Assembly: GCF_003334815.1 (NCBI RefSeq)
Contig: NZ_QOWO01000001.1
From: Escherichia coli
Lineage (GTDB): Bacteria; Pseudomonadota; Gammaproteobacteria; Enterobacterales; Enterobacteriaceae
Length of the DNA stretch: 64,000 nt
Reading direction: 5' to 3' (one strand)
Shown: one piece after another, positions 7,968-57,721 of the stretch
Numbering within the stretch: position 1 is the stretch's first letter
Layout of the letters: each line of letters opens with the position of its first letter
Notes under the pieces: model-generated
What the model was told of the DNA's origin: nothing
Databases searched by the model: none
The model's input: only the letters and a program-made list of their open reading frames with translations
Translations under genes and position numbers: made by a program

Positions 7968-9458
7968 TTAACTTTTGGTTTTGACTAAATCGTTTTTGGC
8001 GCTGCCAAACGGCACGGCACCGCTGAATGGTTTACCGTCGATAGCGTCATGAGTACGCAACGCTTCCGGGCGCAACCAACGCTGAACGCGAGAAGGCATA
8101 TCCAGCCCAATCAGCAGGATCACCACGAACGTCAGACTGAACGAGAGCGATGCCAGCGCAGTACCCAGATCCAGACGTTGAGCGATCAACGCGCCGATGA
8201 TTGGGGCCAGTGCACCGCCCAATGCGCCAACGTTGTAGGTAAAGCCCAGGCCCGCTGCACGCTGGTCGGTATCGAAATAACCGCCAATCAGTTTTGGTAA
8301 GATCCCGGCGATCCCTTGTCCAAGCATTTGCTGGAAGAACAGTAACAGACCGAGCACCCAGACGTTTGCGCCGCCAATCGCAAATACCGGAATAATCAGC
8401 AGCTGCGAGGCCAGCAGGCTACAAACGTACGCTTTGCGGGTTCCCAGCCAGTCACCGAGGAAGCCACCTACGCAGCATCCCACCGCCGCGCCAAAGCCAC
8501 TAAAGAACAGCACATTGGCTACAGTATGCGGGTTATAAGCCAGATCGGTTTTCAGATACGTTGGCAGCAGCGCCTGAATCGGCCATGAGTAGAGGAAAGC
8601 AAACAACACGACCACCATCAGCATTACGCCCGTTGGCCAGCGTTTGCCTGTACTCTGCACCATAAAGCTGATAAAGATTGCGGCGCATAACAGCCCAAGA
8701 ACAGCGACGATCGCGGCATTTTGCAGGTTACCGGCGAAGCAGAACCACAGCGCAGTAGCCGCCGCCAGTGTCATTACGATATTGGCAATGCGATGTTCAC
8801 CACGGTAGAGAATATCCACCATTGTGCGTACTGGTGCTTTACCTGCGTGTTTCTCTTTCCAGTCTTCCGCTTCCGGGATGTTTTTACGCAGCCAGAGAGC
8901 AAAGATGATTGGCAAAATGCCGATAAAGAACAGCGCACGCCAGCCCCAGACCGGAACCACCAGGCTATAGACCTGAGCGGCAACGACGGCCCCCACAGAG
9001 AAGCCTGAAATCAAAAAACCACTGGCTTTGTTACGCAGATGTTTTGGCCAGCTTTCAATGACATAGGTGGCGCTGGAACCGTATTCACCCGCCATCCCCA
9101 TGCCGATGGCCAGACGAGCGATAAACATGGTGATGTAGCCTGGCGCAAAGCCGCAGGCCAGCGTCCCGGCCGAGAAGAGAACGATGCTGGTGACCATTGC
9201 CAGACGACGCCCGTAGCGGTCACCCATAGCGCCGAGCATCAGGCCGCCGAACCAGCGAGAGATAAAGGCTGCAGAGATCAGACTTGCCGCCTGCACCGTC
9301 GTCAGCCCGAATTCACCTTGTACTTCGGTGAGTACCAGGGCGATTAAAACGAAATCAAAACCGTCAAGCAGATATCCCAACCAGGCAGCGGAAAATGCGC
9401 GCCATTGTGCACGGTTGAGATGGCGATACCACGGGATATTCTGGGTTGTAGTACTCAT
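7968..9458 (-). CDS. nanT: Sialic acid transporter (MFS)
   Basis: ORF track 506 aa; canonical start [11 protein letters not shown] (ATG at 9458), giving 496 aa. Confidence 0.9.
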
Positions 9459-9566
9459 TGTGAGTCTCCCGCGGTGGGCGATGCCCACACGCTTTGGTAT
9501 GAAAATTGTAGGGTACAGATGCGTTTATTTCCCCTCACCCGGTAGGGGCGAGCGAGGGGAAACAAC

Positions 9567-10460
9567 TCACCCGCGCTCTTGCATCAACTGCTGGGCCAGC
9601 GCCTTCAGTTCTGGCAGATATTTTTCATCTACCGGTCCAAACGGTTTGCGGCACAGCGGCACAGAAACGACATCCATATAATGGAGGACAGTTTTCAGGC
9701 CGCGGAATACGCCCGTTTTGATCAGTAAATCAATGACTTTATTGCATTCAGTTTGCAGTTTCTGCGCGGTCTGGATATCGCCTTCTTTCAGCGCCTTAAC
9801 GATCCCCTGATAGCGCCAGCCCATGATGTTGTAGGTACTGCCGATACCACCATCAGCGCCCGCCAGCAGACCAGAGGCGAAGATTTCGTCGTAACCGTTA
9901 TAGAGCACAAGATCAGGATGTTCACGACGGATCTGCTCCATCTGATAGAGATCGCCAGAGGTCTGTTTCAGCGCACCTACGCCAGGCAATGTAACAAGTG
10001 TGTTGATCTGATCCAGGGTCAGTTTTACCCCACTCAGGGCTGGAATGTTGTACACCACCATCGGCAAACCATCCGCCGAATCAATAATTGCCCGATAGTG
10101 ATCGCAGTGTTCTTCAAAGCTGAAAGGATAGTAGAACGGCGTGACGGCGGAGACGGCATCGAAGCCATAACGTTTAGCCGATGCCGCAAGTTGTTGGCTT
10201 TCGGCGGTGCTGACGCAACCGACGTGGGCGATGAGTTTAATCTTACCTTTCGCCTCTTCGGCGACGATTTCCAGTACCTGTTCACGCTCGGAAAGGCTTT
10301 GTACAAAGGCCTCGCCGGTCGAACCACCCACGTATAAACCGTCGATGCCCTGCTGAATATTGAACTGAACCAGGCGACGCAGACTCGCTTTATCCAGTGC
10401 TTGTTGTTGGTCAAAAGGAGTCAGGAGTGCAGCCATTACGCCACGTAAATTCGTTGCCAT
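9567..10460 (-). CDS. nanA: N-acetylneuraminate lyase
   Basis: ORF track 297 aa; recognised NanA sequence. Confidence 0.95.
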
Positions 10461-10495
10461 AAATACCTCTGAAGTGATGCTTGTCTGATAAATGA

Positions 10496-10518
10496 TATAC
10501 CTTTATACCTGTTATACC
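10496..10518 (-). promoter_or_regulatory. NanR operator: three GGTATA hexamer repeats in the nanA promoter
   Basis: Plus strand reads TATACC at 10496-10501, 10504-10509 and 10513-10518 (GGTATA on the nanA strand); matches the published Nan box. Confidence 0.7.
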
Positions 10519-10581
10519 AGATCAATTAAGCAACACCCCATACAGAAAGCTTATAATGCGATCTGCTTCACTAAAGTGGCA

Positions 10582-11373
10582 TTATTTCTTTTTGTTGGTG
10601 GTCTGACCGAAAGCGTGCCAGGTAGCAGAGACGCTGTTGAGATGCGATTGCAACGCACGATCGGCTTCGTCAGGATCATGACGGCGGATCGCATCAACGA
10701 TCGCAATATGCTGTTGATAACTAACGTTGTTATGTTCGTGCAGTGCCTGATCGGTAACCGTTGGGCGTGCGGCAATAAGCCAGTCGAGCAGGGCAACGTG
10801 GATCGCCATGAAGATTGGGTTACCGGGGATCTCCGCCAGCACGCGGTGGAAATCAACGTCTGAACGAATGAATGCCGCGTTGTTATCCAGCGACTGACTG
10901 TTGATTTCCAGTGCTTTTGCCAGCAAATCGATTTGCTCATCGGTGGCATGTTCAGCCGCATAGCGCACCAGACTGGATTCAAAGAACAGACGTAATTGTT
11001 CGAAATGGGCAATCCCACCGGGATGAGAAAGGAAATCTTTCGCCATGCCGGAAAGCTCACCGATGATAGTGTCCGCAGAAGGACGCGAGACGCGAGCGCG
11101 TTCGCCGTTGTTTATTTGCACCAGACCTTTGCGTTTTAACGCTGCCAGCGCTTCACGCACCGAAGGACGCCCGACGTTAAAGAACGCCATCAGTTCGCGT
11201 TCAGACGGTAATTGTTCACCTTCTCCAAATTCACGACGGCGGATCATCTGTTCCAGCTCTTCTTCCACCATTTCGGAGAGTTTTTTACGCGCCAGCGGGC
11301 GGCTACGCAAGTTGCGACCAATTGCAGGTGAAGAATCTTCGGTTTGCGAATCAAATGCGTTCATAAGGCCCAT
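10582..11373 (-). CDS. nanR: GntR/FadR-family repressor of the sialic acid regulon
   Basis: ORF track 263 aa; recognised NanR sequence. Confidence 0.9.
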
Positions 11374-11752
11374 TCTGTAAGGTCAGTGTGATTAACATCA
11401 TCAGTGACATCCTATCACAGGATTGAAAGTAGGGGAAAATGGCAGGGTTTTCTCTTTGTGCCTCATCATTACCATAATTAACGGAATAATTAACTATTGC
11501 GAAAAATTAATGTAACGCAGATAAAAACATCCCGTTTGAATTATTTATAAGACTATTCACGAGCATTATGAATATTATGAATGTGTTCTTACAAAATAAT
11601 CATAAGCGCATATTTTTTAATGAAAAATCACCTCACCTACAATTAAAAACACGACATCCGCACCATAAATAGCCTTGCAAAAAATATAACATCGTTGTTT
11701 TCAATCTGCCGTTTATGGGATTGACCGTTTTCTTTTGACACGGAGTTCAACA

Positions 11753-48054: not shown

Positions 48055-48351
48055 ATGTTCGAACAACGCGTAAATTCTGACGTACTGACCGTTTCTACCG
48101 TTAACTCTCAGGATCAGGTAACCCAAAAACCCCTGCGTGACTCGGTTAAACAGGCACTGAAGAACTATTTTGCTCAACTGAATGGTCAGGATGTGAATGA
48201 CCTCTATGAGCTGGTACTGGCTGAAGTAGAACAGCCCCTGTTGGACATGGTGATGCAATACACCCGTGGTAACCAGACCCGTGCTGCGCTGATGATGGGC
48301 ATCAACCGTGGTACGCTGCGTAAAAAATTGAAAAAATACGGCATGAACTAA
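48055..48351 (+). CDS. fis: Nucleoid-associated protein Fis
   Basis: ORF track 98 aa; exact Fis sequence ([15 protein letters not shown]...KKYGMN). Confidence 0.98.
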
Positions 48352-48363
48352 AGTCAAGCTGTA

Positions 48364-48373
48364 ACGGCATGAA
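48364..48373. repeat. Left copy of the 10-bp direct repeat ACGGCATGAA (candidate attL core)
   Basis: Exact match to 57684-57693; 13 bp after the fis stop. Confidence 0.55.
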
Positions 48374-48375
48374 AT

Positions 48376-48408
48376 TAAAGGGGCTATTTCAGCCCCTTTA
48401 CTTTTTGT
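48376..48408 (+). terminator. Rho-independent terminator serving fis; lies inside the island boundary
   Basis: aaaggggctatttcagcccctttactttttgtt, located between the left direct repeat and the tape-measure stop. Confidence 0.75.
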
Positions 48409-48428
48409 TGCAACCGTACTGACAACCC

Positions 48429-50702
48429 TTATGGTGTTTGCGCGCCATCTATCATCATGCTTCGCTGCCTTACTGCTTGTTGCTGTCGTAGTTGCTGTAT
48501 CACCTTCCGGGCTAATGCATCTTCATTCATACCAGGTTCTGCCTTCACGCTGATGTGGTACTGGTCGTTGCTATGCACCGTAGTGCCACCAGAGCGGTTG
48601 GCCAGTGCAGGTGACGGCAGGGCAGCACCAGAGGCAGTGGTTGCTGCTGGCTGCTGTACATCGTCGCGGAATGGTGCGGTAAAGAAATCTTTGGTTTTCT
48701 GCCACGCACCACCAGCAACATCAGACACGGCGTTTTTAAACTCCAGTGCCTTGTTGGTCAGGTTGCCAATGTTGTCAGAAACCCAAATGATCTTATCAAT
48801 CAGGAACGTGATCGGTGCGGTCACAAGCTCGATGCCAGCCGCCAGGGTCTTACCGAACGTCATCCCCATTTTACCGGCCTTATCCAGTTCCTCGCCGCTG
48901 TATTTGACCGGTTCGGTCAGTGACGTGAACCAGTTGAAAGCCGTCTTAACCGCAGCGCCCACGCCATCAATGACGGGCTTCAATGGCCCCATGCGCTCAT
49001 ACAGGCGATGCAGGGCATCGCTAAGCGGTTCCAGCCCGGATTTGATACCTTCACCCACGCCACCAAAAAAAGCCTTCACACCAGCCCAATGGCGGTAAAT
49101 CTGATAACCTGCCAGCGCCAGGCCAGCTACGGCAGCACCAACGCCAGTGGAAATGAACGCCGCACCGATGGCGCGCACGCCGGTAGCCACCGCAGGCAGG
49201 CCACGAGTGCTGGCCAGAACGGCGGATGCGTTCATGCGGGCAAACAGGCTGGACACGTTCAGCAATCCGCCTTTCAGGAACGTGAACGCAAAGCCAGCGG
49301 CGAACGTCGCCACACGCAGTGCCACCAGTGCACTGGAACCAATAACCACTGCTTTGGTCACGGTAGGGTATTCGCGCGCCAGTTCGGCAACCTTGCCGAT
49401 AACCGGGCCAACGGTAGCCAGAACGCCGTTGAATGCTGGCAGCAGCACTGTGCCGATCGTGACGCCCAGGTTAGACACACGGTTGTTGAAAATCTTAAGC
49501 TGCGCCGACGTTTTGGCGGTGGCTGCCTCATATTCAGCCTGCATAGAACCGGCATATTTGGTCTTGTCTTTGACCATATCCAGATTCTTTTGGTACGTAT
49601 CAAGCTGTGTCAGCATTGGTGCGATAGCGCCAATCGATTCCTTACCAAACAGTTGCGAAAGCGTTGCCGCCTGCATGTGTTTTGGCAGCTTGCTGATCTT
49701 GGACAGGATGACGCGGATTGTTTCATCGGCGTTCAGTTGCATTGATTTTGCAACCTGCTTGGATGTGAAGCCAAGCTGTTTAAACGCTTCACGCTGTGAC
49801 TTCGTGGCGGATGCGCCAGCGGTCAGGGATAGCAGCAGGTTTTTAATACCGGTGGCCGCAATCTCATTCTGCACGCCCATACCGCGCAGCGTTGCACCCA
49901 TCGCAGCGATAGAACCGGAAGCTGCACCAGCGACGCTGCCAAGTGGCCCGATGCGCTGCGTGATTTCCAGGATGTCTTTGGCTGATGCGGCGGTGTTGTT
50001 GCCCAGGTAGTTGATCTTGTCGGCCAGAACGTTCATCTGGTCCTGCGTCATCCCGAAGGCGGCGCGCATCTCTGCCATTGCCTGGCCTGCCTGGTCGGCG
50101 CTGACGTCAAAAGCCACACCCATTTTGATGGCCGATTCAGCAAACTTGGTTAGTTCGCTGGTGGCGATGCCTGATTGAGCACCAGCGGCAACAATCTTGC
50201 CGATTTCGTTGGCTGCCATCGGCATTTTGGTTGACATATCCTGGATAGCCTGGCCCATCTTAACCAGGCCGTCAGGGGTTTCGAAGTTGGCAACCTTGCG
50301 GATATCTGCCAGCGTATCTTCAAAATCCATAGCCTGTTTGATCGGTACAGCTACCGTTGCGCCAAGTGCGACAGTCCCCAGGATTCCTTCTTTGTAGCCT
50401 TGACGCTTCGCCAGGTTGCGTTCGCGGGCATCCTCCACGCGTTTCAGGCGTTCGGTGGCAGAACGAAGGCGTTCAACCTGCCCGACAACCGTTTGATAGC
50501 GGTCCTTCATGCGGGAGAATATCGCGCTATCCTGGCCATAACGCTTCATTGCTTCATTTAACTGGCGCTGTTCGCGCGACAGCTTAGAGATTGCGCTACC
50601 AATCTCGACGGTATTTTTCTTTACAGTTCCAAATGCACCACGAAGGCTGCCGGAAACGGCCCCACCAATCGTGATTGTTGCATTTAACTTCTTGTTGGCC
50701 AT
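48429..50702 (-). CDS. Phage tail tape measure protein (TP901-family core-like)
   Basis: ORF track 757 aa; N-terminal coiled coil, Ala/Gly-rich core (GNNTAASAKDILEITQRIGPLGSVAGAASGS...), hydrophobic C-terminal segments; called on recognised family features, not a search. Confidence 0.75.
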   Translation of the reverse strand: MANKKLNATITIGGAVSGSLRGAFGTVKKNTVEIGSAISKLSREQRQLNEAMKRYGQDSAIFSRMKDRYQTVVGQVERLRSATERLKRVEDARERNLAKRQGYKEGILGTVALGATVAVPIKQAMDFEDTLADIRKVANFETPDGLVKMGQAIQDMSTKMPMAANEIGKIVAAGAQSGIATSELTKFAESAIKMGVAFDVSADQAGQAMAEMRAAFGMTQDQMNVLADKINYLGNNTAASAKDILEITQRIGPLGSVAGAASGSIAAMGATLRGMGVQNEIAATGIKNLLLSLTAGASATKSQREAFKQLGFTSKQVAKSMQLNADETIRVILSKISKLPKHMQAATLSQLFGKESIGAIAPMLTQLDTYQKNLDMVKDKTKYAGSMQAEYEAATAKTSAQLKIFNNRVSNLGVTIGTVLLPAFNGVLATVGPVIGKVAELAREYPTVTKAVVIGSSALVALRVATFAAGFAFTFLKGGLLNVSSLFARMNASAVLASTRGLPAVATGVRAIGAAFISTGVGAAVAGLALAGYQIYRHWAGVKAFFGGVGEGIKSGLEPLSDALHRLYERMGPLKPVIDGVGAAVKTAFNWFTSLTEPVKYSGEELDKAGKMGMTFGKTLAAGIELVTAPITFLIDKIIWVSDNIGNLTNKALEFKNAVSDVAGGAWQKTKDFFTAPFRDDVQQPAATTASGAALPSPALANRSGGTTVHSNDQYHISVKAEPGMNEDALARKVIQQLRQQQAVRQRSMMIDGAQTP

Positions 50703-50723: not shown

Positions 50724-50930
50724 TTAATTAAGTAAATTTTCTGCAAGGGTGTGTTCACCGATTGCCCGCAAGGCGGCAGCGGCCAGTTGCAGGGCGCATT
50801 CGGTGCGGTAGTCTCGCTGTTTCTGCATTTCCTCCGCTGTGTTGCACGCCAGAACTTTTGGCAGGACCATATCCACCAGTTCAGGCCAGGGGTTTGTTCC
50901 TTCCGGTTTTGTGTGAATACGGTCCAGCAT
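50724..50930 (-). CDS. Small hypothetical protein immediately upstream of the tape measure gene (possible tail assembly chaperone)
   Basis: ORF track 68 aa; same strand and tight spacing within the operon; no recognisable motif. Confidence 0.4.
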   Translation of the reverse strand: MLDRIHTKPEGTNPWPELVDMVLPKVLACNTAEEMQKQRDYRTECALQLAAAALRAIGEHTLAENLLN

Positions 50931-50939
50931 GGTGCCCCC

Positions 50940-51257
50940 TTATGCACTCCGTACCAGGATAGCGCCGCGCTTCACCGCCTGGCGTTTGGCCCGTTCACCG
51001 GAACTGATGCGGCTGGATGGTTGCCACTTCGTGCGTCCCAGGGCGGATGCGTGGCTTTCCGCTTCGTCACGCATGATGCGGCCCGCTTCATCGGTCATGT
51101 GTTCGAATGCGTTTAAACGGTTGCGAAGGCTTGCCAGCAGGTCGGCTGCTTCGTAGCTGATAGGGTTTTTCTCTGAAATGGTTTGGAAACGCTTTGTTTC
51201 GCTAAGGATCAAACGCGCTTCTTCTTTCATTGATTCGTACAGGTCATGTTTTTTCAT
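50940..51257 (-). CDS. Hypothetical protein (possible tail assembly chaperone); start uncertain
   Basis: ORF track 149 aa (50940..51389); preferred start at the internal MKKHDLYESMKEE (ATG at 51257, ~104 aa) because the upstream extension is low-complexity. Confidence 0.4.
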   Translation of the reverse strand: MKKHDLYESMKEEARLILSETKRFQTISEKNPISYEAADLLASLRNRLNAFEHMTDEAGRIMRDEAESHASALGRTKWQPSSRISSGERAKRQAVKRGAILVRSA

Positions 51258-51471
51258 AGTATTGGCCGCTAACAATAGTTGTTGATGATTAAGTGAGTGC
51301 GCGCTTTTAGGTGACAGGTGCGGCGCAACCGGTGTGGAATTAGTGGTGGTTTTGACCGTCCAGGATGACCACCAACCTGGTTCCAGCATCCATCGTCTGA
51401 GGAACGATGAAGGTTAAATTTGGCCGGTTATTTGGGGCACAGGGAACCGGTGAAACCTGTATTCTTGGCCA

Positions 51472-51636
51472 TTATTTGCCGTTCAGCCCGCTACTCAGAA
51501 ACTTTTCAATCACCTGGCTGCGTGAAGGGCGGATGCCTGTTCTGCGTTCCAGTTTGGCTTGCTCTCTTTCGACCTGGCGCACCAGGTCAGGGGCGAGGCG
51601 TACCGTTACGTGCTGGCGTGTTTCTTGTCGTTTCAT
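51472..51636 (-). CDS. Ribbon-helix-helix (CopG/Arc-like) DNA-binding protein, 54 aa; absent from the ORF track (below length cutoff)
   Basis: Hand-translated: MKRQETRQHVTVRLAPDLVRQVEREQAKLERRTGIRPSRSQVIEKFLSSGLNGK; beta-strand then two helices typical of RHH; starts 3 nt after the upstream gene stop. Confidence 0.55.
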   Translation of the reverse strand: MKRQETRQHVTVRLAPDLVRQVEREQAKLERRTGIRPSRSQVIEKFLSSGLNGK

Positions 51637-51639
51637 GGC

Positions 51640-51960
51640 TTAGTACCTGTTCATCCAGCTTTCGCGCTTCTGTTTCGGGCGCTGCTCGCGGTAGTGACTG
51701 CGCACCAGGGAAGCGAGGTAATTCACGGCGCGTTCAATCTGGTACTGCTTAAGCTCCGGGTAAGCCTTGCGAATCCATTTTTCAGCAGCGTCATCGCTGT
51801 AGATGAATCCTGACCAGCCAACCGGCTGCACTACGATGCGCGGTGTGTTTTCATCACCGTGGCGCACATACATGGCCACACCTTCGATAGCTGCCAGGAT
51901 TTCACCCGGCAGGGCAGCGCGCTCCGCTGCCGCTTTTTTGCTGCCCCACCACATGATCAA
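51640..51960 (-). CDS. Hypothetical protein, ~105 aa, translationally coupled to the downstream RHH gene
   Basis: ORF track 106 aa; TTG or ATG start overlapping the stop of the upstream 294-aa gene. Confidence 0.45.
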   Translation of the reverse strand: MIMWWGSKKAAAERAALPGEILAAIEGVAMYVRHGDENTPRIVVQPVGWSGFIYSDDAAEKWIRKAYPELKQYQIERAVNYLASLVRSHYREQRPKQKRESWMNRY

Positions 51961-52841
51961 GCCTTCCAGAACATAGTTGAGTCAGGCACCAGTGCGGATG
52001 CGTTCACCCACACAACGATTTCAACGGCACCATTCAGCACGCGGCGGGCGGTGACGCGGATTTCATCATCCAGGGCAACGGCTGCATTGCCGAAAGCGCC
52101 AATGATTGTGCTGGAAGTCTGGCCGCTGATTTCAGCGCGTACACCGTAGGCACGCAGAACGCCGTCTTGCAGTTCCAGGCCGGTGCAATCACCGCCAACA
52201 ATGGCTTTAACTTCATCAAAGCGCAGGTTTTTGGCTGCAATCTTCTGCGCCACTGCGGTGAATGACGGGCTGGCCAGCGTTTCCGCTGCGGTTTCCAGGT
52301 GGTTCAGCAGTACGAAATCAGCCAGGTCAGCAATTCCGCGTTCAATGGCGGTGTTGACCACTTCCAGCGTGGTATCGTCTGCGAAGTCGTGTTTCATCTG
52401 CTTGCGGCTAAGGGTGTAGCCCACGCCGTAAGCCGGTGCGTTGTTGTGGTTGAACGCTGATACCAGGTAAGGCAGGCCGCTCATGGTGATTTCTTCGCCG
52501 TCAGCCACTTTGGCGAACGCACCAGGGCGAACGACAACGAAGCGGTCAGCCACTTCGCGGCCAGTCGTTGCGCCGGTGTTGCCAGTCGGAGGCGTGGTCA
52601 TCGGGCCAGGGATGCGGATGATTTCAGCGCCTGCCTGTGCCACCAGTGAACGTTCAGCCAGAACAGCGTTGAAGGTGGTCTGCTTGCCGCCTTTCGGGGT
52701 CAGCACGTCATTCATGGACAGGTAGCGAACTGCTGCAGGTTCCACAGGGATGAATTGAGTAATGTCACCGTTGCCATCAGTGCGAATGTGGCCGCCCTGG
52801 TGGTTCAACGCGTCGTTGATAAGTTGAGATAAAACGTTCAT
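51957..52841 (-). CDS. Phage structural-like protein, 294 aa (major tail- or capsid-like; unassigned)
   Basis: ORF track 322 aa; start moved to MNVLSQLINDAL (ATG at 52841), which has a GGAG RBS 8 nt upstream; first gene of the minus-strand operon ending in the tape measure. Confidence 0.4.
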   Translation of the reverse strand: MNVLSQLINDALNHQGGHIRTDGNGDITQFIPVEPAAVRYLSMNDVLTPKGGKQTTFNAVLAERSLVAQAGAEIIRIPGPMTTPPTGNTGATTGREVADRFVVVRPGAFAKVADGEEITMSGLPYLVSAFNHNNAPAYGVGYTLSRKQMKHDFADDTTLEVVNTAIERGIADLADFVLLNHLETAAETLASPSFTAVAQKIAAKNLRFDEVKAIVGGDCTGLELQDGVLRAYGVRAEISGQTSSTIIGAFGNAAVALDDEIRVTARRVLNGAVEIVVWVNASALVPDSTMFWKA

Positions 52842-53229
52842 TAAAAATGCTCCGGTTGTTGTGCAATAAATCGTCTGGAATGACTTAAAGATATACAGTA
52901 ACCAGGCCGAACACAATAGCCACAATGTGAGCTTTTTAATGTAAAATCAGTAACTTATAACCATGAATACTTGCAAATAACCAGGCATAATCCGGCGTAA
53001 TCGATATTTACACATCTTTACAATTCAGCGTGTGTAAAACGTGTTCGCTTTATTTTGCAATCTCGCAAGTATGGTTCCAGTGCTTTGATAGGATTCACAT
53101 AAATGATTGATTTACTTGACGTAATCATAAAGTGAGTTTTGTAGGGGCACGCACAACGCGAATTACGCGGGACCAATGCCCCCGCAGGCTGTACCCCCCT
53201 CGGAAGTACCTTGACTTTTTTGGCAGCAG

Positions 53230-53540
53230 ATGGCGATGACACCTAATGTCACCATGACGGCGTTATGTTGGAAAGGTGTCATTAGGTGTCATAGCGGGAA
53301 ACACGCTGATTATTAAAGAAAAATACAAACAAGATAATGTAATGAATGACACCTGTGACACCATGACACCCATTTCTATAAAGTATAACGACCACTGTTA
53401 CATTATCACAGTGGTCGTTATTTTCTTTAAAAATGCTGTCATAGGTGTCATAGGTGTCATTAGTAATGTCGCAACCCTTGCGGGTTATGGCTTGAGAACA
53501 ATGACACCTGCCATGACACCTTATAAATTAATGACACCTA
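53230..53540. repeat. Iteron array: at least 10 perfect copies of the octamer ATGACACC/GGTGTCAT in both orientations, with a central 9-bp-arm palindrome; probable replication origin
   Basis: Perfect copies start at 53236, 53275, 53285, 53346, 53363, 53444, 53453, 53501, 53513 and 53531; variants at 53246, 53355 and 53435; palindrome gaccactgt-N9-acagtggtc at 53390-53416; located 3' of the primase gene. Confidence 0.7.
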
Positions 53541-53607
53541 GGCGTCACTTTGAAAATAAAAAAAGCCCCGGCATTCGCCAGGGTAATGGGCAACAACTGT
53601 TGTGATG

Positions 53608-53832
53608 TTATGATCGGATGAACGGCAAGATTTCAGCGGAATCCACTACCCTTATGCGGTAGCTGCATAGCAGGTTTTCACCCAACTTGGCCAGTTCCTG
53701 CTGCACCTCTGGCAGCCTATTGCGAGCATGGTCTACCGCTTCCTGTTCAGTGGCGAAACCCTCCATAATTTCGGTTTCGGTGTAGGTGCCGTGTTCCGGG
53801 TCAAAAGCAATGATATATGCGCGATAACTCAT
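53608..53832 (-). CDS. Small hypothetical protein between the primase gene and the iteron origin
   Basis: ORF track 74 aa; GAGG RBS 6 nt upstream of the ATG. Confidence 0.5.
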   Translation of the reverse strand: MSYRAYIIAFDPEHGTYTETEIMEGFATEQEAVDHARNRLPEVQQELAKLGENLLCSYRIRVVDSAEILPFIRS

Positions 53833-53841
53833 AGTATTACC

Positions 53842-55530
53842 TCAAAACTGGTGGTTAGGCCCATCAAAATAGCGATGGTCTTGCTGTCCAAAAACTTTCG
53901 GTGGCATTAGGTAAAAACGCCCTTTACTTGTTCTACGTGCATCCCTTCCTGTCAGTTTTCGCAGAATGTTACCGCACTGCGTTGCCTGGGATTTTGTTGG
54001 CCGATCCTGCCCAATAGACAACAGAACATCCGTTGCAGTCATTTCTATATATGCAGCCAGGCGATCACTGTTCCAATCAAAACGCGCCAATATCATTTCT
54101 TCAATCGGGTCAGTTTGCCCGTGCTGTTCGTTCACGACTTCCAGCATGGCTTCTTCATCACGGTCCAGCCACCAGCGTTCACCTGCTTCAAACCAGGAAA
54201 GAACTTCGGCCCATAATTGTTGTGTGTCTATGCCATGCTCGTAGTTAACGGCAGTTACAGGAATGGTCCACCAGCGCACGTTCCCGGTGTCATCCGCCAG
54301 GAAGTGTTTCGGGTTCACTGACGCAAAAAACACGGTGCGGCGCTGGTACTTCGATTCAAGCCGGTCATAAGGGCGGCGCAGGTCATCACGGTCCTGGCTG
54401 ATAAATGCTTTGAGCTTGGCAATATCCGCCTTGCGAAACGTCGCATCCAATTCGCCTAGCTCAACAAGCCAGTGACTAATTGCGCTGGCCACGCTGTCTT
54501 TATTGCCGGGGTCAATAGTTGCTCCCACCTTAACCAGGTTGCGATTGTCAGGGGGCAGAAGCGCTTTAAACCATGCTGTTTTACCCAGTGACTGCTCGCC
54601 CTGGAAAACCAGCACGCCTTTGGACCAGAAACCCGCTTCTAAGTAAGCAGCCGCCACGGCAGACAGCAACCAACGACGCACCAGCATGGCCAGCAGATCG
54701 CGACTGTAGTCATCTGGCGTGCTGATAGTATTCAGCAGGTCTGCAAATCGGCTTCGTCCATCCCATTCACGTTGATTGATGAAATCCCTGACAGGATTAT
54801 AAGTATTGCGCACAGCGATAGTTTTGATATGACCTTCAATATTACTCATTGGTAACCGGTTCAGTGCGGCGAGGCTTAAAATTTCACTCACAGCGCAGTT
54901 ATCGCGAGCATCTGAACCGCCACTAACGCCAGGTACTAAAACCTCAACGTCCTTGCTAATCTCATTATATTTTGCAGAAATGCTGTAGTTATCTAATAGA
55001 CGTTCAACATTAGGGCGTGTGTTTAAAGGCTGGCCATTGCTTCCAATATTTGGCCAGGTTGTCATTAATACAGGAGCCATATCGTGAATGTCTTTTACAG
55101 TTGCTGCGGCGGTTGCTCGTTCTTCTTTGCGCAGCATGCCCACCAGGCTTTCACCGCGTAGGGCGGCGTCTCTAAGCCTGTCCATGTTCCATTTTTCCGG
55201 TTCACGGTCAGTAATGCCTTTAAATAAACGGGCTTCCTTAACTCCAGCCACTGCCAGCTTGTCAGCAATAGTGCTGATTTGAAGTTGCTTAATATCACCA
55301 GCCAGATATACCCGCGCAGACCGGCGACCATCGTCGATAATTCGTAGATTATCTAAATCATCCAGTTGTCTTGGCCCAAGGTAGACAGGAGGAGTAGTGT
55401 CACCGGCAACTTGTTTACCCATTCCTTCTTCCCAGCCCTTGGCATGGCTCCAAGCGTCAGAACCGGCAAAAATAATTGCTTCCGTAAAAGGGTCTTTAGG
55501 TAATAGCTTAACGTTAGGCGCGTTTCTCAT
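53842..55530 (-). CDS. Satellite-type primase / replication initiator with P-loop NTPase domain
   Basis: ORF track 562 aa; Walker A motif GEQSLGKTAW; sits between alpA and the iterons as in P4 alpha / PICI pri-rep arrangements. Confidence 0.65.
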   Translation of the reverse strand: MRNAPNVKLLPKDPFTEAIIFAGSDAWSHAKGWEEGMGKQVAGDTTPPVYLGPRQLDDLDNLRIIDDGRRSARVYLAGDIKQLQISTIADKLAVAGVKEARLFKGITDREPEKWNMDRLRDAALRGESLVGMLRKEERATAAATVKDIHDMAPVLMTTWPNIGSNGQPLNTRPNVERLLDNYSISAKYNEISKDVEVLVPGVSGGSDARDNCAVSEILSLAALNRLPMSNIEGHIKTIAVRNTYNPVRDFINQREWDGRSRFADLLNTISTPDDYSRDLLAMLVRRWLLSAVAAAYLEAGFWSKGVLVFQGEQSLGKTAWFKALLPPDNRNLVKVGATIDPGNKDSVASAISHWLVELGELDATFRKADIAKLKAFISQDRDDLRRPYDRLESKYQRRTVFFASVNPKHFLADDTGNVRWWTIPVTAVNYEHGIDTQQLWAEVLSWFEAGERWWLDRDEEAMLEVVNEQHGQTDPIEEMILARFDWNSDRLAAYIEMTATDVLLSIGQDRPTKSQATQCGNILRKLTGRDARRTSKGRFYLMPPKVFGQQDHRYFDGPNHQF

Positions 55531-55795
55531 ATCGCACCCCGCGTTTTAACTCCAGATACATCGCCCATGATTCAGAATCGCTGATGCGAAACGGCACCAG
55601 GCTATCAGCCATAGCGGCGTGACGTGAAACAATAGTCCACGGGCGGTTTACACCTTCGCGAATGCATGCTTGCAACAATAATTGTGCTGCCGCCATACGC
55701 TGGGCGGTAAGTTCGCCAACGGTTAACTGGCGCTGTGGGTTACGCAACAGGCTGTTATAGCGACTGATAGCCTGATTTACGGTTGTTTTCTTCAT
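55514..55795 (-). CDS. Small hypothetical protein directly upstream of the primase gene, overlapping its start
   Basis: ORF track 93 aa; GAGGTGG RBS; 17-nt overlap with the primase start. Confidence 0.5.
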   Translation of the reverse strand: MKKTTVNQAISRYNSLLRNPQRQLTVGELTAQRMAAAQLLLQACIREGVNRPWTIVSRHAAMADSLVPFRISDSESWAMYLELKRGVRYEKRA

Positions 55796-55803
55796 AAGCC
55801 ACC

Positions 55804-55983
55804 TCAGCGCTGTACTGGCTGGCGGCTTTCAAGCCACGCCATAACATCTTTGCGCCGCCAGGCCACGCGTTTTGGCCCTAATTTTATGCAATTAGGAAAC
55901 GTGCCAGCCTGGATATAGCGCCAGATAGTCATGCGGGATAATGTTGTTAGTGTTGTGACTTGCTTAGCAGTCAGTAATTCCAT
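55804..55983 (-). CDS. alpA: AlpA-family phage transcriptional regulator (MerR-like HTH), 59 aa; absent from the ORF track (below length cutoff)
   Basis: Hand-translated: MELLTAKQVTTLTTLSRMTIWRYIQAGTFPNCIKLGPKRVAWRRKDVMAWLESRQPVQR; classic AlpA signature; GAGGG RBS. Confidence 0.7.
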   Translation of the reverse strand: MELLTAKQVTTLTTLSRMTIWRYIQAGTFPNCIKLGPKRVAWRRKDVMAWLESRQPVQR

Positions 55984-56277
55984 CTTACGGCCCTCAAAAC
56001 ATGGCCGGTGGATATGTGGTCTGTAATGATTTATGATTATGTTGCGTTAACAAAGAACGCGACCATTACAGCCTTCACCGGCTTTTTGGTATTAAGGGGT
56101 TCGGTTTTCTGTTTGGCGACGTGAACCGATCCCCGCCTTATTCAAGCCCTCAGTTCTGCTGGGGGCTTTTTATTACTACATGACAATAATACTCAAATTG
56201 TATCAGCAGTAAATACCCTTTAAATTCATAAACTTAACTGCAAATAACGCTACATAACTCTATATAATCATCAATTT

Positions 56278-57513
56278 TTAATTATCTGATTTTAAAAGGT
56301 TTATTTTTTCTAAATATTTTATCCATTTGTCCAAGGCTAACCGTTTTTCCGGGATGTACTGGCTACGGTTGTACACCGCCATCACTCCTGGCATTGAGTG
56401 GCCCAGCAACTGTTCAACCACATGCGGGGCTATCCCCAAGTTATTTAGACTGGTGGCAAAAGTGCGGCGCAGGTCATGCAACGTCCACGGCGTTGAATGC
56501 TCTAATCGTCTGTATAAGATACGCCCCCACTGGCTGACAGCTTCGGGTTTCTTCATTTCACCAAGCAGCATTCCGCTATCAAGATGATTTTGGCGTAGCT
56601 GTAAAATAAATGGCTGTATAGATTCAGGCACGGGTCTGATGATTTTCTCCCCACCCTTGCTATGTTCTCGCGGAACTGTCCAAATCCATTCTTTCACGTT
56701 CCATTCCGACCATGTCGAAAGACGAATTTCTTGTGTTCTTGCACCAAACACTATTAGCAATTTTAAAAGCGCGGTGTAGTAAGGTAGAAACGCATATTCG
56801 CTTTTTAGCGCATTCCAAAGGCCACTAAGTTCTTCAGAAGTTAAAACACGATCACGTTTTGCCTGCTTTCTTCCAACATCAGTAACTTTGATATCCTCCA
56901 GCGCATCACTGTAAACATCGTGCAGCCTGCGGTTGTGAATCAACGCCTGCTTGCAGTTACCTAATATGTAGCCGCTTGCTACCGGCGCGACTTTTTTGAT
57001 TCTGCTAAATGTCTCCATCCATCTTGCTTTAGAGCACTGTTCAAGTGGCAATTCGCCGATGAAAGGATAAATATGTCTTTCGAATTGGCGTCTATGCCTT
57101 TCAAAGTTGACCCGGTTTTCCGCCGCGTACTCATTAATCCAGCGTTCCAATGCTTCCCTGATAGTGACAGGTTTCATGGTTTTTGCTGACTCTTGGTCAA
57201 ACTGGTCTTTAGGATCTAGATTATGAGCAAGCCACCGTTTGCATTGGTCGCGTTTCACCCTCGCCTCAGCAAGAGATAAGGCAGGATACTTGCCCAGCAC
57301 TAGCGTCAAAGTATTGGCGCTTTTATGCTTATTCTTATAACGGAACAACCATTGGATGTTATTGGCCGGTCTCTTCTCGCCATCAAGGATTTTGCGCCTT
57401 GATGGTGTAACGCGAACAGAAAGGCTGCCACCGTCAGCAACATCAAAAGGTTTTTCGATGACTTTGCGGGTTAACGCACGCAATTGAACATCTGAGAGTT
57501 TATTTTCGGCCAT
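56278..57513 (-). CDS. int: Tyrosine recombinase, P4-type integrase family
   Basis: ORF track 435 aa; start taken at MAENKLSDVQLRAL (ATG at 57513, 411 aa); P4-integrase-like N-terminus (DGGSLSVRVTPSRRK) and C-terminal catalytic motifs (HDLRRTF...LGHS...VYNR...Y). Confidence 0.85.
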   Translation of the reverse strand: MAENKLSDVQLRALTRKVIEKPFDVADGGSLSVRVTPSRRKILDGEKRPANNIQWLFRYKNKHKSANTLTLVLGKYPALSLAEARVKRDQCKRWLAHNLDPKDQFDQESAKTMKPVTIREALERWINEYAAENRVNFERHRRQFERHIYPFIGELPLEQCSKARWMETFSRIKKVAPVASGYILGNCKQALIHNRRLHDVYSDALEDIKVTDVGRKQAKRDRVLTSEELSGLWNALKSEYAFLPYYTALLKLLIVFGARTQEIRLSTWSEWNVKEWIWTVPREHSKGGEKIIRPVPESIQPFILQLRQNHLDSGMLLGEMKKPEAVSQWGRILYRRLEHSTPWTLHDLRRTFATSLNNLGIAPHVVEQLLGHSMPGVMAVYNRSQYIPEKRLALDKWIKYLEKINLLKSDN

Positions 57514-57683
57514 AGAGTTAATGACAACCTTTTTGACAACTGTATGCAGGGAGTAACTGATAACTGATGATACAATGCGAGCCAATAAAAAATAAATATC
57601 TCTTTCCGCATCAATTATTTATGATGAATACAAATTATCTAGAGTGATAATAAATTACGTATAATGACTCTGTATTTTACAAT

Positions 57684-57693
57684 ACGGCATGAA
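57684..57693. repeat. Right copy of the 10-bp direct repeat ACGGCATGAA (candidate attR core)
   Basis: Exact match to 48364-48373; ~170 bp beyond the integrase start. Confidence 0.55.
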
Positions 57694-57721
57694 CTAATTC
57701 AGGTTAGCTAAATGCTTGATT

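What the first reader, a model, noticed from the sequence alone, without database searches (positions are those of the whole stretch)
55804..55983. AlpA-family regulator missed by the ORF track (59 aa)
A minus-strand ORF with a GAGGG ribosome-binding site encodes a 59-aa protein with the AlpA HTH signature (LTxKQV...LSRMTIWRYIQAGTFPNCIKLGPKRVAWRRKDVMAWL). AlpA-type proteins are the activator/excisionase-like switches of E. coli PICIs and P4-like elements. Its position between the integrase and the primase fits that role.
Basis: partly seen in the sequence, partly recalled or inferred. Interest (0 to 1): 0.45.

Follow-up and report, generated by a model that had tools for sequence, protein, structure and literature searches.

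The report
AlpA switch gene of a phage satellite
The 59-residue ORF is a real AlpA/excisionase-family DNA-binding gene that public annotation already names; it is most likely the on-switch of a 9.3-kb phage-parasitic island inserted at the end of the E. coli fis gene, and the island is more unusual than the gene.

Summary
Window 55804-55983 (-) encodes the quoted 59-aa protein behind a GAGGG ribosome-binding site. It matches Pfam Phage_AlpA over the full model (E 3.9e-13), evolves under strong purifying selection (dN/dS 0.02-0.15), and RefSeq already annotates it (WP_001439227.1). It was probably "missed" only because 59 aa is below a 60-aa ORF cut-off.

alpA follows int and opens a tightly packed operon, alpA-orf93-vapE-orf74. 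The operon lies in a 9,346-bp island bounded by 17-bp direct repeats at the fis 3' end, the hallmark attachment site of Vibrio PICMI satellites.

The island has its own iteron origin. It carries a 73-bp copy (97-99% identical) of the cos site of Jilinvirus myophages. It also encodes a VapE replicase and a tape measure protein about 60% identical to those phages' proteins, plus an HK97-fold capsid protein.

The protein's closest relatives are the GIsul2 excisionase (structure), P4 Vis (42%) and the EcCICFT073 AlpA activator (38%). I infer that it is the helper-induced excision switch. Whether it works as an excisionase, an activator or both remains untested.

The gene is an ordinary new member of a known family. 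The satellite around it appears undescribed.

The parts
55804..55983 (-). alpA CDS, 59 aa, AlpA/Vis/Xis-family winged-helix protein
   Evidence: ORF. Pfam Phage_AlpA E 3.9e-13. PHROG 66/2790. AF2 pLDDT 88.9; best PDB fold match is 8C3T, the GIsul2 excisionase, TM 0.86, rmsd 0.9 A. dN/dS 0.02-0.15.
55991..55995 (-). GAGGG ribosome-binding site, 7 nt before the ATG
   Evidence: Read from the sequence. AGGGC is invariant in six variants.
55984..56192 (-). Conserved, structured alpA upstream region (candidate 5' leader). It contains hairpin A (56144-56168), hairpin B (56096-56134) and stem C (56021-56071) enclosing stem D. An upstream CCGGCC can pair with the ribosome-binding site.
   Evidence: Alignments A1 and A7. 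RNAalifold gives 8 of 34 pairs with compensatory change. Folding z-score -2.9. The transcript ends are inferred.
56197..56224 (-). Candidate alpA promoter, TTTAAA-N16-TACAAT with an upstream TG, just after the int stop codon
   Evidence: Consensus scan. Conserved in five of six variants. Function is inferred.
56009..56178 (+). Candidate cis-antisense small RNA: promoter at 56009-56037, RNA at about 56044-56178, ending in a hairpin plus a U5 terminator
   Evidence: Promoter scan and terminator scan. The -35/17-nt/-10 layout is kept in four clades although the hexamer sequences differ (read). Folding energy -51.5 kcal/mol, z-score -5.9. Compensatory changes occur in the stems. There is no Rfam match. 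Not experimentally supported.
56278..57513 (-). Tyrosine integrase, 411 aa, with an arm-binding domain. The mechanical ORF extends further to a TTG at 57585.
   Evidence: PHROG 1, E 5e-53. RefSeq CDS. Pfam Arm-DNA-bind_3 plus Phage_integrase in orthologues.
57681..57697 (+). attR core, AATACGGCATGAACTAA
   Evidence: Exact 17-bp direct repeat, 9346 bp from its partner. The same core is listed for fis-integrated elements in PMC10803314, Suppl. Data 2.
48335..48351 (+). attL core, which is the last codons and stop codon of fis
57611..57658 (-). Three phased TAATT(T/G) repeats, 20 bp apart, between the core and the int promoter. They are candidate binding sites for a directionality factor (AlpA) or an accessory protein.
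   Evidence: Read from the sequence. Conserved in Cronobacter, Salmonella and metagenome variants. Inference only.
57522..57540 (-). Two GTTGTCA repeats just upstream of the int ATG, with a third at 48420-48426 in the opposite arm. They are candidate arm-type Int sites.
   Evidence: The 7-mer is not enriched in the window as a whole, so this rests on position and conservation alone.
55514..55795 (-). orf93, unknown function. Its start lies 8 nt after the alpA stop, and it overlaps vapE by 17 nt.
   Evidence: No family hit. Conserved in all variants.
53842..55530 (-). VapE-domain replication protein, 562 aa. Residues 159-556 are 61% identical to the C-terminal part of the Jilinvirus 'DNA primase'. 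The N-terminal 158 aa are island-specific.
   Evidence: Pfam VapE-like_dom, E 6e-48. PHROG 2249. tblastn against phage ECO1230-10.
53608..53832 (-). orf74, last gene of the alpA operon, followed by a terminator at 53566-53583
53236..53538 (.). Replication origin: ten exact GGTGTCAT iterons in both orientations around an AT-rich core
   Evidence: 15 copies in the window against 1.9 expected; 10 of the 15 lie here. Sequence. They are absent from the phage. The Cronobacter and Salmonella variants carry a different iteron.
53148..53220 (.). Copy of the Jilinvirus cos site
   Evidence: 97-99% identical to the stretch upstream of terS in ECO1230-10, ep3 and HeidiAbel (94% in PT1). It spans the physical ends of the ECOO78 genome, which overlap by 13 nt, GGACCAATGCCCC.
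51957..52841 (-). HK97-fold major capsid protein, 294 aa
   Evidence: AF2 pLDDT 93.2. Foldseek PDB hits are phage capsids and encapsulins. 10 of 61 relatives are fused to a prohead protease.
50724..51954 (-). Four small ORFs of unknown function (104, 54, 149 and 68 aa)
   Evidence: No family hits. No match to the phage tail chaperone or tube.
48429..50702 (-). Full-length tail tape measure protein, 757 aa
   Evidence: Pfam PhageMin_Tail, E 3.5e-39. PHROG 28, E 3e-129. 58-60% identical over its whole length to Jilinvirus tape measure proteins.

Best explanation
The ORF is a genuine AlpA/Vis/Xis-family winged-helix DNA-binding protein. It is the first gene of the early operon alpA-orf93-vapE-orf74 of a 9.35-kb phage satellite integrated at the 3' end of fis.

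Proposed mechanism:
1. In the resting state int is expressed from its own promoter and ends at its own terminator. alpA is kept low, possibly through its long structured upstream region and a divergent antisense RNA.
2. When a Jilinvirus-like myophage infects, the alpA operon is switched on.
3. AlpA then acts as the switch from the integrated to the excised state. Most likely it is a recombination directionality factor that works with Int on the int-proximal arm. It may also boost its own operon.
4. VapE fires the GGTGTCAT iteron origin.
5. The island's cos copy lets the helper terminase package the island.

What is shown: the gene, its family and fold, selection on it, the operon layout, the att sites, the origin, the cos copy and the helper-derived genes. 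What is inferred: induction by the helper, the excisionase role, and the binding sites.
For: Family and fold:
- Pfam Phage_AlpA, E 3.9e-13; PHROG 'excisionase and transcriptional regulator'.
- The predicted fold superposes on the GIsul2 excisionase 8C3T (TM 0.86, rmsd 0.9 A, 35% identity). The RdfS, Pukovnik Xis and TorI excisionases are also among the hits (sequence hit).
- 42% identical to P4 Vis (annotated in the record as excisionase and regulator) and 38% to the EcCICFT073 AlpA.

Real gene:
- dN/dS 0.02-0.15.
- Intact in 47 complete E. coli genomes and present in Cronobacter, Salmonella, Klebsiella and Enterobacter.

Layout:
- int has its own terminator, conserved through compensatory changes.
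- alpA, orf93 and vapE are separated by 8 nt or overlap, and one terminator follows orf74.

Context:
- 17-bp direct repeats at the fis 3' end, as for PICMI115. There alpA is necessary and sufficient for excision without changing transcription, and int appears constitutive (PMC10803314).
- No other excisionase-like protein was found in the island.
- Three phased repeats, conserved across variants, lie in the int-proximal arm.

Satellite status:
- iteron origin
- cos copy
- helper-like VapE and tape measure protein
Against: - Nothing here shows transcription, induction or DNA binding.
- The best-studied E. coli homologue (EcCICFT073 AlpA, 38% identical, same position) is a transcriptional autoactivator that does not control int (PMC6092414). 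Sequence identity does not separate the activator and excisionase subtypes.
- The NCBIfam 'excise' model scores 19.4 bits, below its 28.8-bit cut-off.
- The proposed arm sites are short AT-rich motifs with no statistical support.
- The helper is inferred only from sequence. No Jilinvirus is present in the window, and the lifestyle of that genus is unsettled (PMC11990801).
Confidence: 0.6

Rival explanations
1. Pure transcriptional master activator, as in EcCICFT073. AlpA binds its own promoter region and turns on alpA-orf93-vapE-orf74, and perhaps the late capsid/tape-measure operon. Excision follows indirectly, and AlpA is not part of the recombination complex.
For: - 38% identity to, and the same position as, the EcCICFT073 AlpA. 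That protein autoactivates, and its overexpression triggers excision and replication (PMC6092414). The EcCIMP1 alpA downstream of int behaves likewise.
- A conserved inverted repeat, GTAATG..CATTAC, brackets the alpA-proximal region. It changes symmetrically to GCAATG..CATTGC in the variant whose AlpA is only 66% identical. This could reflect operator and protein changing together.
Against: - The island has no other excisionase candidate.
- The closest solved structure is an excisionase.
- In the architecturally closest family (PICMI, also at fis), alpA did not alter satellite transcription.
- The inverted repeat is equally well explained as an RNA stem.
Confidence: 0.27
2. Relic gene in a decaying, immobile island. 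The ORF is intact but no longer has a role.
For: - The island sequence is nearly clonal (99.4-99.8% over 5 kb) in 47 E. coli genomes.
- One variant has an IS21 insertion in its tape measure gene.
- No helper phage is present in the window.
Against: - Strong purifying selection across genera.
- All island genes, both att repeats, the iterons and a 98.6%-identical cos copy are intact.
- The same element occurs at the same site in several genera, which implies recent mobility.
Confidence: 0.1
3. Chance ORF with no protein product.
Against: Full-length Pfam match, dN/dS well below 1, a conserved ribosome-binding site, annotation by PGAP, and a confident fold.
Confidence: 0.01

Closest known systems
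AlpA of Vibrio PICMI satellites (PICMI115; PMC10803314)
   Same: The element integrates at the 3' end of fis between 17-bp direct repeats. The gene order is int, alpA, one small unknown gene, then the replication gene. alpA heads the early regulon. Both are AlpA/HTH_17 proteins with an excisionase-like fold.
   Different: - The host is Enterobacteriaceae, not Vibrionaceae.
- The replication protein is VapE (PF05272), not DUF3987/DUF5906.
- The island is 9.35 kb and carries a capsid gene, a tape measure gene and a cos site. PICMIs are about 6-7 kb, have no capsid genes and are packaged as concatemers.
- I could not obtain the PICMI115 AlpA sequence, so no direct sequence comparison was made.
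AlpA of E. coli PICIs (EcCICFT073, EcCIMP1; PMC6092414, PMC11773190)
   Same: It is a small AlpA-family protein directly downstream of int, in the same orientation, ahead of the replication genes. It is 38% identical to the EcCICFT073 AlpA, E 1e-12.
   Different: - It is a different allele, at a different attachment site (fis, against the roxA/phoQ region in CFT073).
- In EcCICFT073 several small genes separate alpA from pri. Here alpA, orf93 and vapE are contiguous.
- Activator function is shown there and is untested here.
Vis (ORF88) of satellite phage P4
   Same: It is the best phage-database match from an E. coli element: 42% identity over 52 residues. The record annotates it as excisionase and transcriptional regulator. 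P4 also has 8-bp iterons bound by its replication protein.
   Different: - Vis is 88 aa, with an N-terminal extension.
- P4 lacks the int-alpA adjacency.
- The island has none of the P4 hallmark genes psu, delta, sid or epsilon.
GIsul2 excisionase (PDB 8C3T)
   Same: It is the closest solved structure: TM 0.86-0.89, rmsd 0.9 A, 35% identity. Sequence E-value 9e-6. The depositors name the molecule 'AlpA family phage regulatory protein'.
   Different: It belongs to an integrative genomic island or transposon, not a phage satellite. I found no paper on it in the library.
AlpA of cryptic prophage CP4-57 (E. coli K-12 b2624), which gives the family its name
   Same: Same Pfam family, and also encoded near an integrase.
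   Different: Only 31% identical, with an insertion in the recognition region. In CP4-57 it is separated from intA by yfjH.

Membership tests
Pfam Phage_AlpA (PF05930) / AlpA-Vis-Xis winged-helix proteins | Significant full-length match to the family profile | tested here: met
   E 3.9e-13, 49.5 bits, model positions 2-51 of 51. PHROG 66/2790, E about 1e-12.
Pfam Phage_AlpA (PF05930) / AlpA-Vis-Xis winged-helix proteins | Small protein with the excisionase/MerR-type winged-helix fold | tested here: met
   AF2 pLDDT 88.9, with strand-helix-helix-wing-helix topology. Best PDB matches are 8C3T, RdfS, Pukovnik Xis, TorI, BldC and MerR N-terminal domains.
NCBIfam TIGR01764 'excisionase family DNA-binding protein' | Score at or above the curated cut-off of 28.8 bits | tested here: not met
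   19.4 bits, E 0.001.
Gram-negative PICI master regulator AlpA | Encoded directly downstream of int, in the same orientation, ahead of the pri-rep gene | tested here: met
   int 56278-57513, alpA 55804-55983 and vapE 53842-55530, all on the minus strand. Same order as in CFT073.
Gram-negative PICI master regulator AlpA | Helper-induced, positively autoregulated, and required for excision, replication and packaging | not testable with these tools
   This needs reporter fusions, deletions and phage infection (as in PMC6092414).
PICI (SatelliteFinder definition, PMC10085698) | int, a regulator and pri-rep are present, and no phage tail or holin genes ('forbidden' components) | tested here: not met
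   The core trio is present, but the island carries a tail tape measure gene. Tail profiles are forbidden components in the model. I did not run SatelliteFinder itself.
PICMI (PMC10803314) | Integration at the end of fis between short direct repeats | tested here: met
   17-bp repeat AATACGGCATGAACTAA at 48335-48351 (fis stop codon included) and at 57681-57697. The paper calls integration at fis the hallmark of PICMI.
PICMI (PMC10803314) | Primase of the DUF3987/DUF5906 type | tested here: not met
   The only Pfam hit is VapE-like_dom, PF05272.
PICMI (PMC10803314) | Minimal gene content (about 6-7 kb) with no capsid-related genes | tested here: not met
   9,346 bp, 12-13 genes, an HK97-fold capsid protein and a tape measure protein.
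P4-like satellites | Presence of psu, delta, sid and epsilon together with the alpha primase | tested here: not met
   No island protein matches these families in PHROGs or NCBIfam.
Capsid-forming PICI (cf-PICI) | Own capsid gene plus portal, protease, head-tail connectors and terminase subunit(s) | tested here: not met
   Only a capsid protein was recognised. No portal, protease, connector or terminase hit in this variant. A terS gene exists in variant L022.

The most novel reading that the evidence does not exclude
alpA is the switch of an undescribed class of enterobacterial phage satellite that occupies the PICMI attachment site (fis). The class parasitises Jilinvirus-type myophages. It carries a near-exact copy of their cos site, a chimeric replicase derived from the helper's primase-helicase, its own HK97-fold capsid protein and, unusually for a satellite, its own full-length tail tape measure protein. 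In this reading alpA is held off by a cis-antisense small RNA and a structured leader rather than by a protein repressor. That would give a concrete answer to how Gram-negative satellites without a master repressor stay silent.
Probability: 0.4. Interest if true: 0.72.

Novelty: new member of a known kind. Interest (0 to 1): 0.42.

Why it matters
The gene itself adds little. It is one more AlpA-family protein, it sits where satellite AlpA genes sit, and RefSeq already names it.

Its value is as the handle on the element around it. Expressing alpA should be the simplest way to mobilise, cure or test a satellite that seems to link three things:
- the fis-integrating PICMI lineage, so far described as complete elements only in Vibrio;
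- the poorly understood Jilinvirus phages;
- a satellite-encoded tape measure protein, which a December 2025 preprint describes as essentially unknown in satellites.

The system also offers a clean test of the open question raised by the EcCICFT073, EcCIMP1 and PICMI papers: whether the AlpA encoded next to int is an excisionase, an activator, or both. The conserved antisense promoter and terminator opposite the alpA upstream region suggest a testable mechanism for keeping the switch off.

Tried and rejected
- Rfam scan of the whole island at E up to 1: only two chance-level hits, and nothing in the int-alpA spacer.
- PADLOC: only marginal HTH hits for AlpA and none for the other island proteins, so no known defence system was recognised.
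- Tail genes: I tested whether the small ORFs upstream of the tape measure gene are the helper's tail chaperone, tube or sheath. No similarity was found.
- Genome-contig scan with an AlpA alignment: it returned only an unrelated Agrobacterium locus, because the island is absent from the species-representative genomes.
- metagenome DNA-pattern scan: four loci, mostly identical to sequences already held.
- Word-indexed protein search: it found only close relatives.
- Literature search for PDB 8C3T: nothing relevant. A search for 'Jilinvirus' plus 'satellite' gave no papers.
- A 32-aa hydrophobic ORF on the + strand (56026-56124): rejected as coding, because 1-3-nt indels break its frame in other clades.
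- GTTGTCA as arm-type sites: the 7-mer is not enriched in the window, so this is kept only as a position-based suggestion.
- GGTGTCAT iterons in the helper genome: absent, so the island's origin is its own.
- A motif shared between the att arm and the alpA promoter that could mark AlpA sites: none was convincing.

Full report
**1. The observation**

Window 55804-55983 on the minus strand is an ATG-to-TGA ORF of 59 codons. GAGGG lies at 55991-55995, 7 nt before the ATG.

- The protein matches Pfam Phage_AlpA (PF05930) over the whole model (E 3.9e-13) and HTH_17 (E 1e-8).
- It matches PHROGs 66 and 2790, 'excisionase and transcriptional regulator', at E about 1e-12.
- The NCBIfam 'excise' model scores 19.4 bits, below its 28.8-bit cut-off.
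- An AlphaFold model (pLDDT 88.9) has the strand-helix-helix-wing-helix topology. It superposes best on PDB 8C3T, the GIsul2 excisionase (TM 0.86-0.89, rmsd 0.9 A, 35% identity). BldC, the RdfS excisionase, Pukovnik Xis, TorI and MerR N-terminal domains follow (sequence-level hit).

The ORF is a real gene. I compared orthologues from Cronobacter sakazakii, Salmonella enterica and a metagenomic E. coli-like variant. Synonymous sites are near saturation while dN is 0.04-0.18, giving dN/dS of 0.02-0.15.

It is not unannotated. RefSeq lists it as WP_001439227.1, 'helix-turn-helix transcriptional regulator' or 'AlpA family transcriptional regulator'. The identical sequence is on at least 1000 public contigs. 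That is an inference from the tool's default.

**2. What surrounds it**

The flanking genes are E. coli core genes: dusB-fis on one side and yhdJ-yhdU-acrS-acrEF on the other. Between them lie 9,346 bp bounded by an exact 17-bp direct repeat, AATACGGCATGAACTAA. One copy is at 48335-48351 and includes the last fis codons and the stop. The other is at 57681-57697. This island is present in 47 of 5,426 complete E. coli genomes.

All island genes that I regard as real are on the minus strand (RefSeq also lists a + strand ORF, discussed under the origin below):

| Feature | Coordinates |
|---|---|
| int (411 aa) | 56278-57513 |
| alpA | 55804-55983 |
| orf93 | 55514-55795 |
| VapE-domain protein (562 aa) | 53842-55530 |
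| orf74 | 53608-53832 |
| non-coding stretch of about 700 bp | 52842-53607 |
| 294-aa protein | 51957-52841 |
| four small ORFs | 50724-51954 |
| tape measure protein (757 aa) | 48429-50702 |

- orf93 starts 8 nt after the alpA stop, with its ribosome-binding site over that stop.
- orf93 overlaps vapE by 17 nt.
- One intrinsic terminator follows orf74, at 53566-53583.

So alpA is the first cistron of a compact operon.

**3. The island is a phage satellite**

*Origin.* Ten exact GGTGTCAT octamers in both orientations surround an AT-rich core at 53236-53538. The whole window has 15 copies against 1.9 expected. This is an iteron origin just downstream of the replication gene. It is probably also why RefSeq calls a dubious + strand ORF there. 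The Cronobacter and Salmonella variants carry a different iteron at the same place.

*cos site.* The stretch 53148-53220 is 97-99% identical to a non-coding segment immediately upstream of terS in the Jilinvirus myophages ECO1230-10, ep3 and HeidiAbel, and 94% identical in PT1. In phage ECOO78 this segment is where the deposited linear genome begins and ends. The two ends overlap by 13 nt, GGACCAATGCCCC, and the island contains that sequence. I read this as a copy of the helper's cos site.

*Genes shared with the helper.* I compared all island proteins with the full ECO1230-10 genome.
- VapE residues 159-556 are 61% identical to the C-terminal two-thirds of the phage 'DNA primase'.
- The tape measure protein is 59% identical over its whole length.
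- Nothing else matches.
- The cos segment is far more similar (98.6% nt) than these genes are (72-75% nt).
- The phage lacks the island's iterons.

*Capsid protein.* The 294-aa protein has no family hit. It has 243 relatives at E up to 0.001 among cluster representatives. Ten of the 61 aligned relatives are fused to a prohead protease. It folds with pLDDT 93 into an HK97-type capsid protein, and all top Foldseek hits are phage capsids or encapsulins.

*Conservation.* The same gene order at the same fis site occurs in Cronobacter, Salmonella and further E. coli variants. One of these has a terS gene, and an IS21 element sits immediately after its shortened tape measure gene.

**4. Comparison with known satellites**

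*E. coli PICIs.* Fillol-Salom et al. (PMC6092414) showed that EcCICFT073 AlpA is encoded after int. It activates its own operon, is induced by the helper, and is required for the island cycle. When overexpressed it triggers excision and replication, but it does not control int. Our protein is 38% identical to it. The EcCIMP1 paper (PMC11773190) found the same for the alpA next to int. It also showed that other 'AlpA family' proteins are plain excisionases.

*P4.* P4 Vis, annotated in its record as excisionase and regulator, is 42% identical.

*PICMIs.* The closest architecture is the PICMI family of Vibrio (PMC10803314).
- Integration at the end of fis between 17-bp repeats.
- Gene order int, alpA, one small gene, prim.
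- Virulent helpers.
- alpA is necessary and sufficient for excision, with no effect on satellite transcription.

That paper's Supplementary Data 2 already lists fis-integrated int/alpA/prim elements in Enterobacterales with the same repeat. The E. coli entries on the part I read are 15-17 kb, and the authors state they found no complete PICMI outside Vibrio.

*What does not fit.*
- This island fails the PICMI model on primase type (VapE only) and on minimalism.
- It fails the SatelliteFinder PICI definition because tail genes are forbidden components.
- It lacks P4 and cf-PICI hallmark genes.

A December 2025 preprint states that tape measure proteins are not known in satellites apart from its own mycobacterial elements and a proposed PLE11 case. 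No paper in the library links Jilinvirus and satellites. The BASEL paper calls the Jilinvirus lifestyle enigmatic and treats HeidiAbel as virulent.

**5. How alpA is probably controlled (inference)**

The 294-bp int-alpA spacer is conserved in architecture across six variants, while its stems change by compensatory substitutions.

| Element | Reference variant | Other variants |
|---|---|---|
| Hairpin A | GCCCCCAG..CTGAGGGC | CCCCGG..CCGGGG |
| Stem D | GCGTT/AACGC | GGGTT/AACCC |
| Stem C | GTAATG/CATTAC | GCAATG/CATTGC |

- A promoter facing alpA (TTTAAA-N16-TACAAT with an upstream TG, at 56224-56197) is conserved just after the int stop.
- On the opposite strand, a promoter at 56009-56037 keeps its -35/17-nt/-10 layout in four clades although the hexamers differ: TATGAT, TAAAAT, TAGAAT and TATAGT (read).
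- The RNA it would make (56044-56178) folds into four hairpins at -51.5 kcal/mol, z-score -5.9. It ends in a GC-rich stem followed by U5, and the U-run is conserved on this strand only.

I therefore suspect a cis-antisense small RNA opposed to a long alpA leader. The leader folds with a z-score of -2.9, and its Shine-Dalgarno sequence can pair with an upstream CCGGCC. This rests on only six sequences in about four clades and on no expression data.

**6. Mechanism and verdict**

I commit to the following model. AlpA is the helper-responsive switch of this satellite. It most likely acts as a directionality factor with Int. The reasons are:
- no other excisionase candidate exists in the island;
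- the nearest solved structure is an excisionase;
- int is a separate, self-terminated unit;
- the PICMI precedent at the same att site points the same way;
- conserved phased repeats lie in the int-proximal arm.

It may also autoactivate. My confidence is 0.6 for the switch-with-excisionase model and 0.27 for a pure activator. Relic and artefact readings are unlikely.

As a finding about a 59-aa ORF, this is a correct and fairly ordinary call: a new member of a known family, already annotated. The more interesting result is the element it controls. The element appears to be an undescribed variant of satellite with a helper cos copy, its own capsid protein and its own tape measure protein.

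Noticed in passing
window 53148-53220: A 73-bp non-coding stretch is 97-99% identical to the segment upstream of terS in Jilinvirus myophages. It spans the physical genome ends of phage ECOO78, which overlap by 13 nt (GGACCAATGCCCC). The island therefore carries a copy of the helper's cos site, far better conserved than the shared genes.
   Followed up: yes
window 48429-50702 (-): The island encodes a full-length tail tape measure protein of 757 aa, 58-60% identical to Jilinvirus tape measure proteins. The gene is conserved at the same position in Cronobacter, Salmonella and other E. coli variants. Tail genes are 'forbidden' in the SatelliteFinder PICI models, and a 2025 preprint reports tape measure proteins as essentially unknown in satellites.
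   Followed up: partly
window 51957-52841 (-): A 294-aa 'hypothetical protein' with no Pfam, PHROG or NCBIfam hit is an HK97-fold major capsid protein (AF2 pLDDT 93; Foldseek hits are capsids and encapsulins). Some relatives are fused to a prohead protease. No portal, protease or terminase gene accompanies it in this variant.
   Followed up: yes
window 56009-56178 (+): This is a candidate cis-antisense small RNA opposite the alpA upstream region. It has a conserved promoter layout, four hairpins (z-score -5.9) and a conserved hairpin-plus-U5 terminator with compensatory stem changes. There is no Rfam family and no expression evidence.
   Followed up: partly
window 53236-53538; L003 and L006, equivalent region: The iteron origin has ten exact GGTGTCAT repeats. 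The Cronobacter and Salmonella variants have a different iteron (CTCGCCACCACA-type) at the same place. This implies a swap of origin specificity between otherwise syntenic islands.
   Followed up: partly
window 53842-55530 (-): The VapE replication protein looks chimeric. Residues 159-556 are 61% identical to the C-terminal part of the Jilinvirus 'DNA primase', but the N-terminal 158 residues are island-specific. No primase domain is detectable, so 'primase' is a loose label.
   Followed up: partly
window 48364-48378: A degenerate third copy of the att core (ACGGCATGAAATTAA, 13 of 15 matches) lies 12 nt inside the island next to attL. A hairpin at about 48380-48403 follows it and probably terminates both fis and the tape measure gene.
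   Followed up: no
L022 (E. coli strain 98202, NZ_CP173557.1), locus 9022-17917: This is a more diverged island variant, with an AlpA 66% identical. It carries a terminase small subunit gene in the late module. Its tape measure gene is shortened (about 490 aa against 757) and is followed directly by an IS21-family element.
   Followed up: no
window 56278-57585 (-): The mechanical ORF for int starts at a TTG (57585, 435 aa). RefSeq and all orthologues use the ATG at 57513 (411 aa). The extra 72 nt contain the putative int promoter and the GTTGTCA repeats.
   Followed up: partly
L023 (phage ECO1230-10), 27996-28430: The putative helper encodes a 'late transcriptional activator' between its lysis genes and its early genes. 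It is an obvious candidate for the phage signal that turns on satellite promoters.
   Followed up: no
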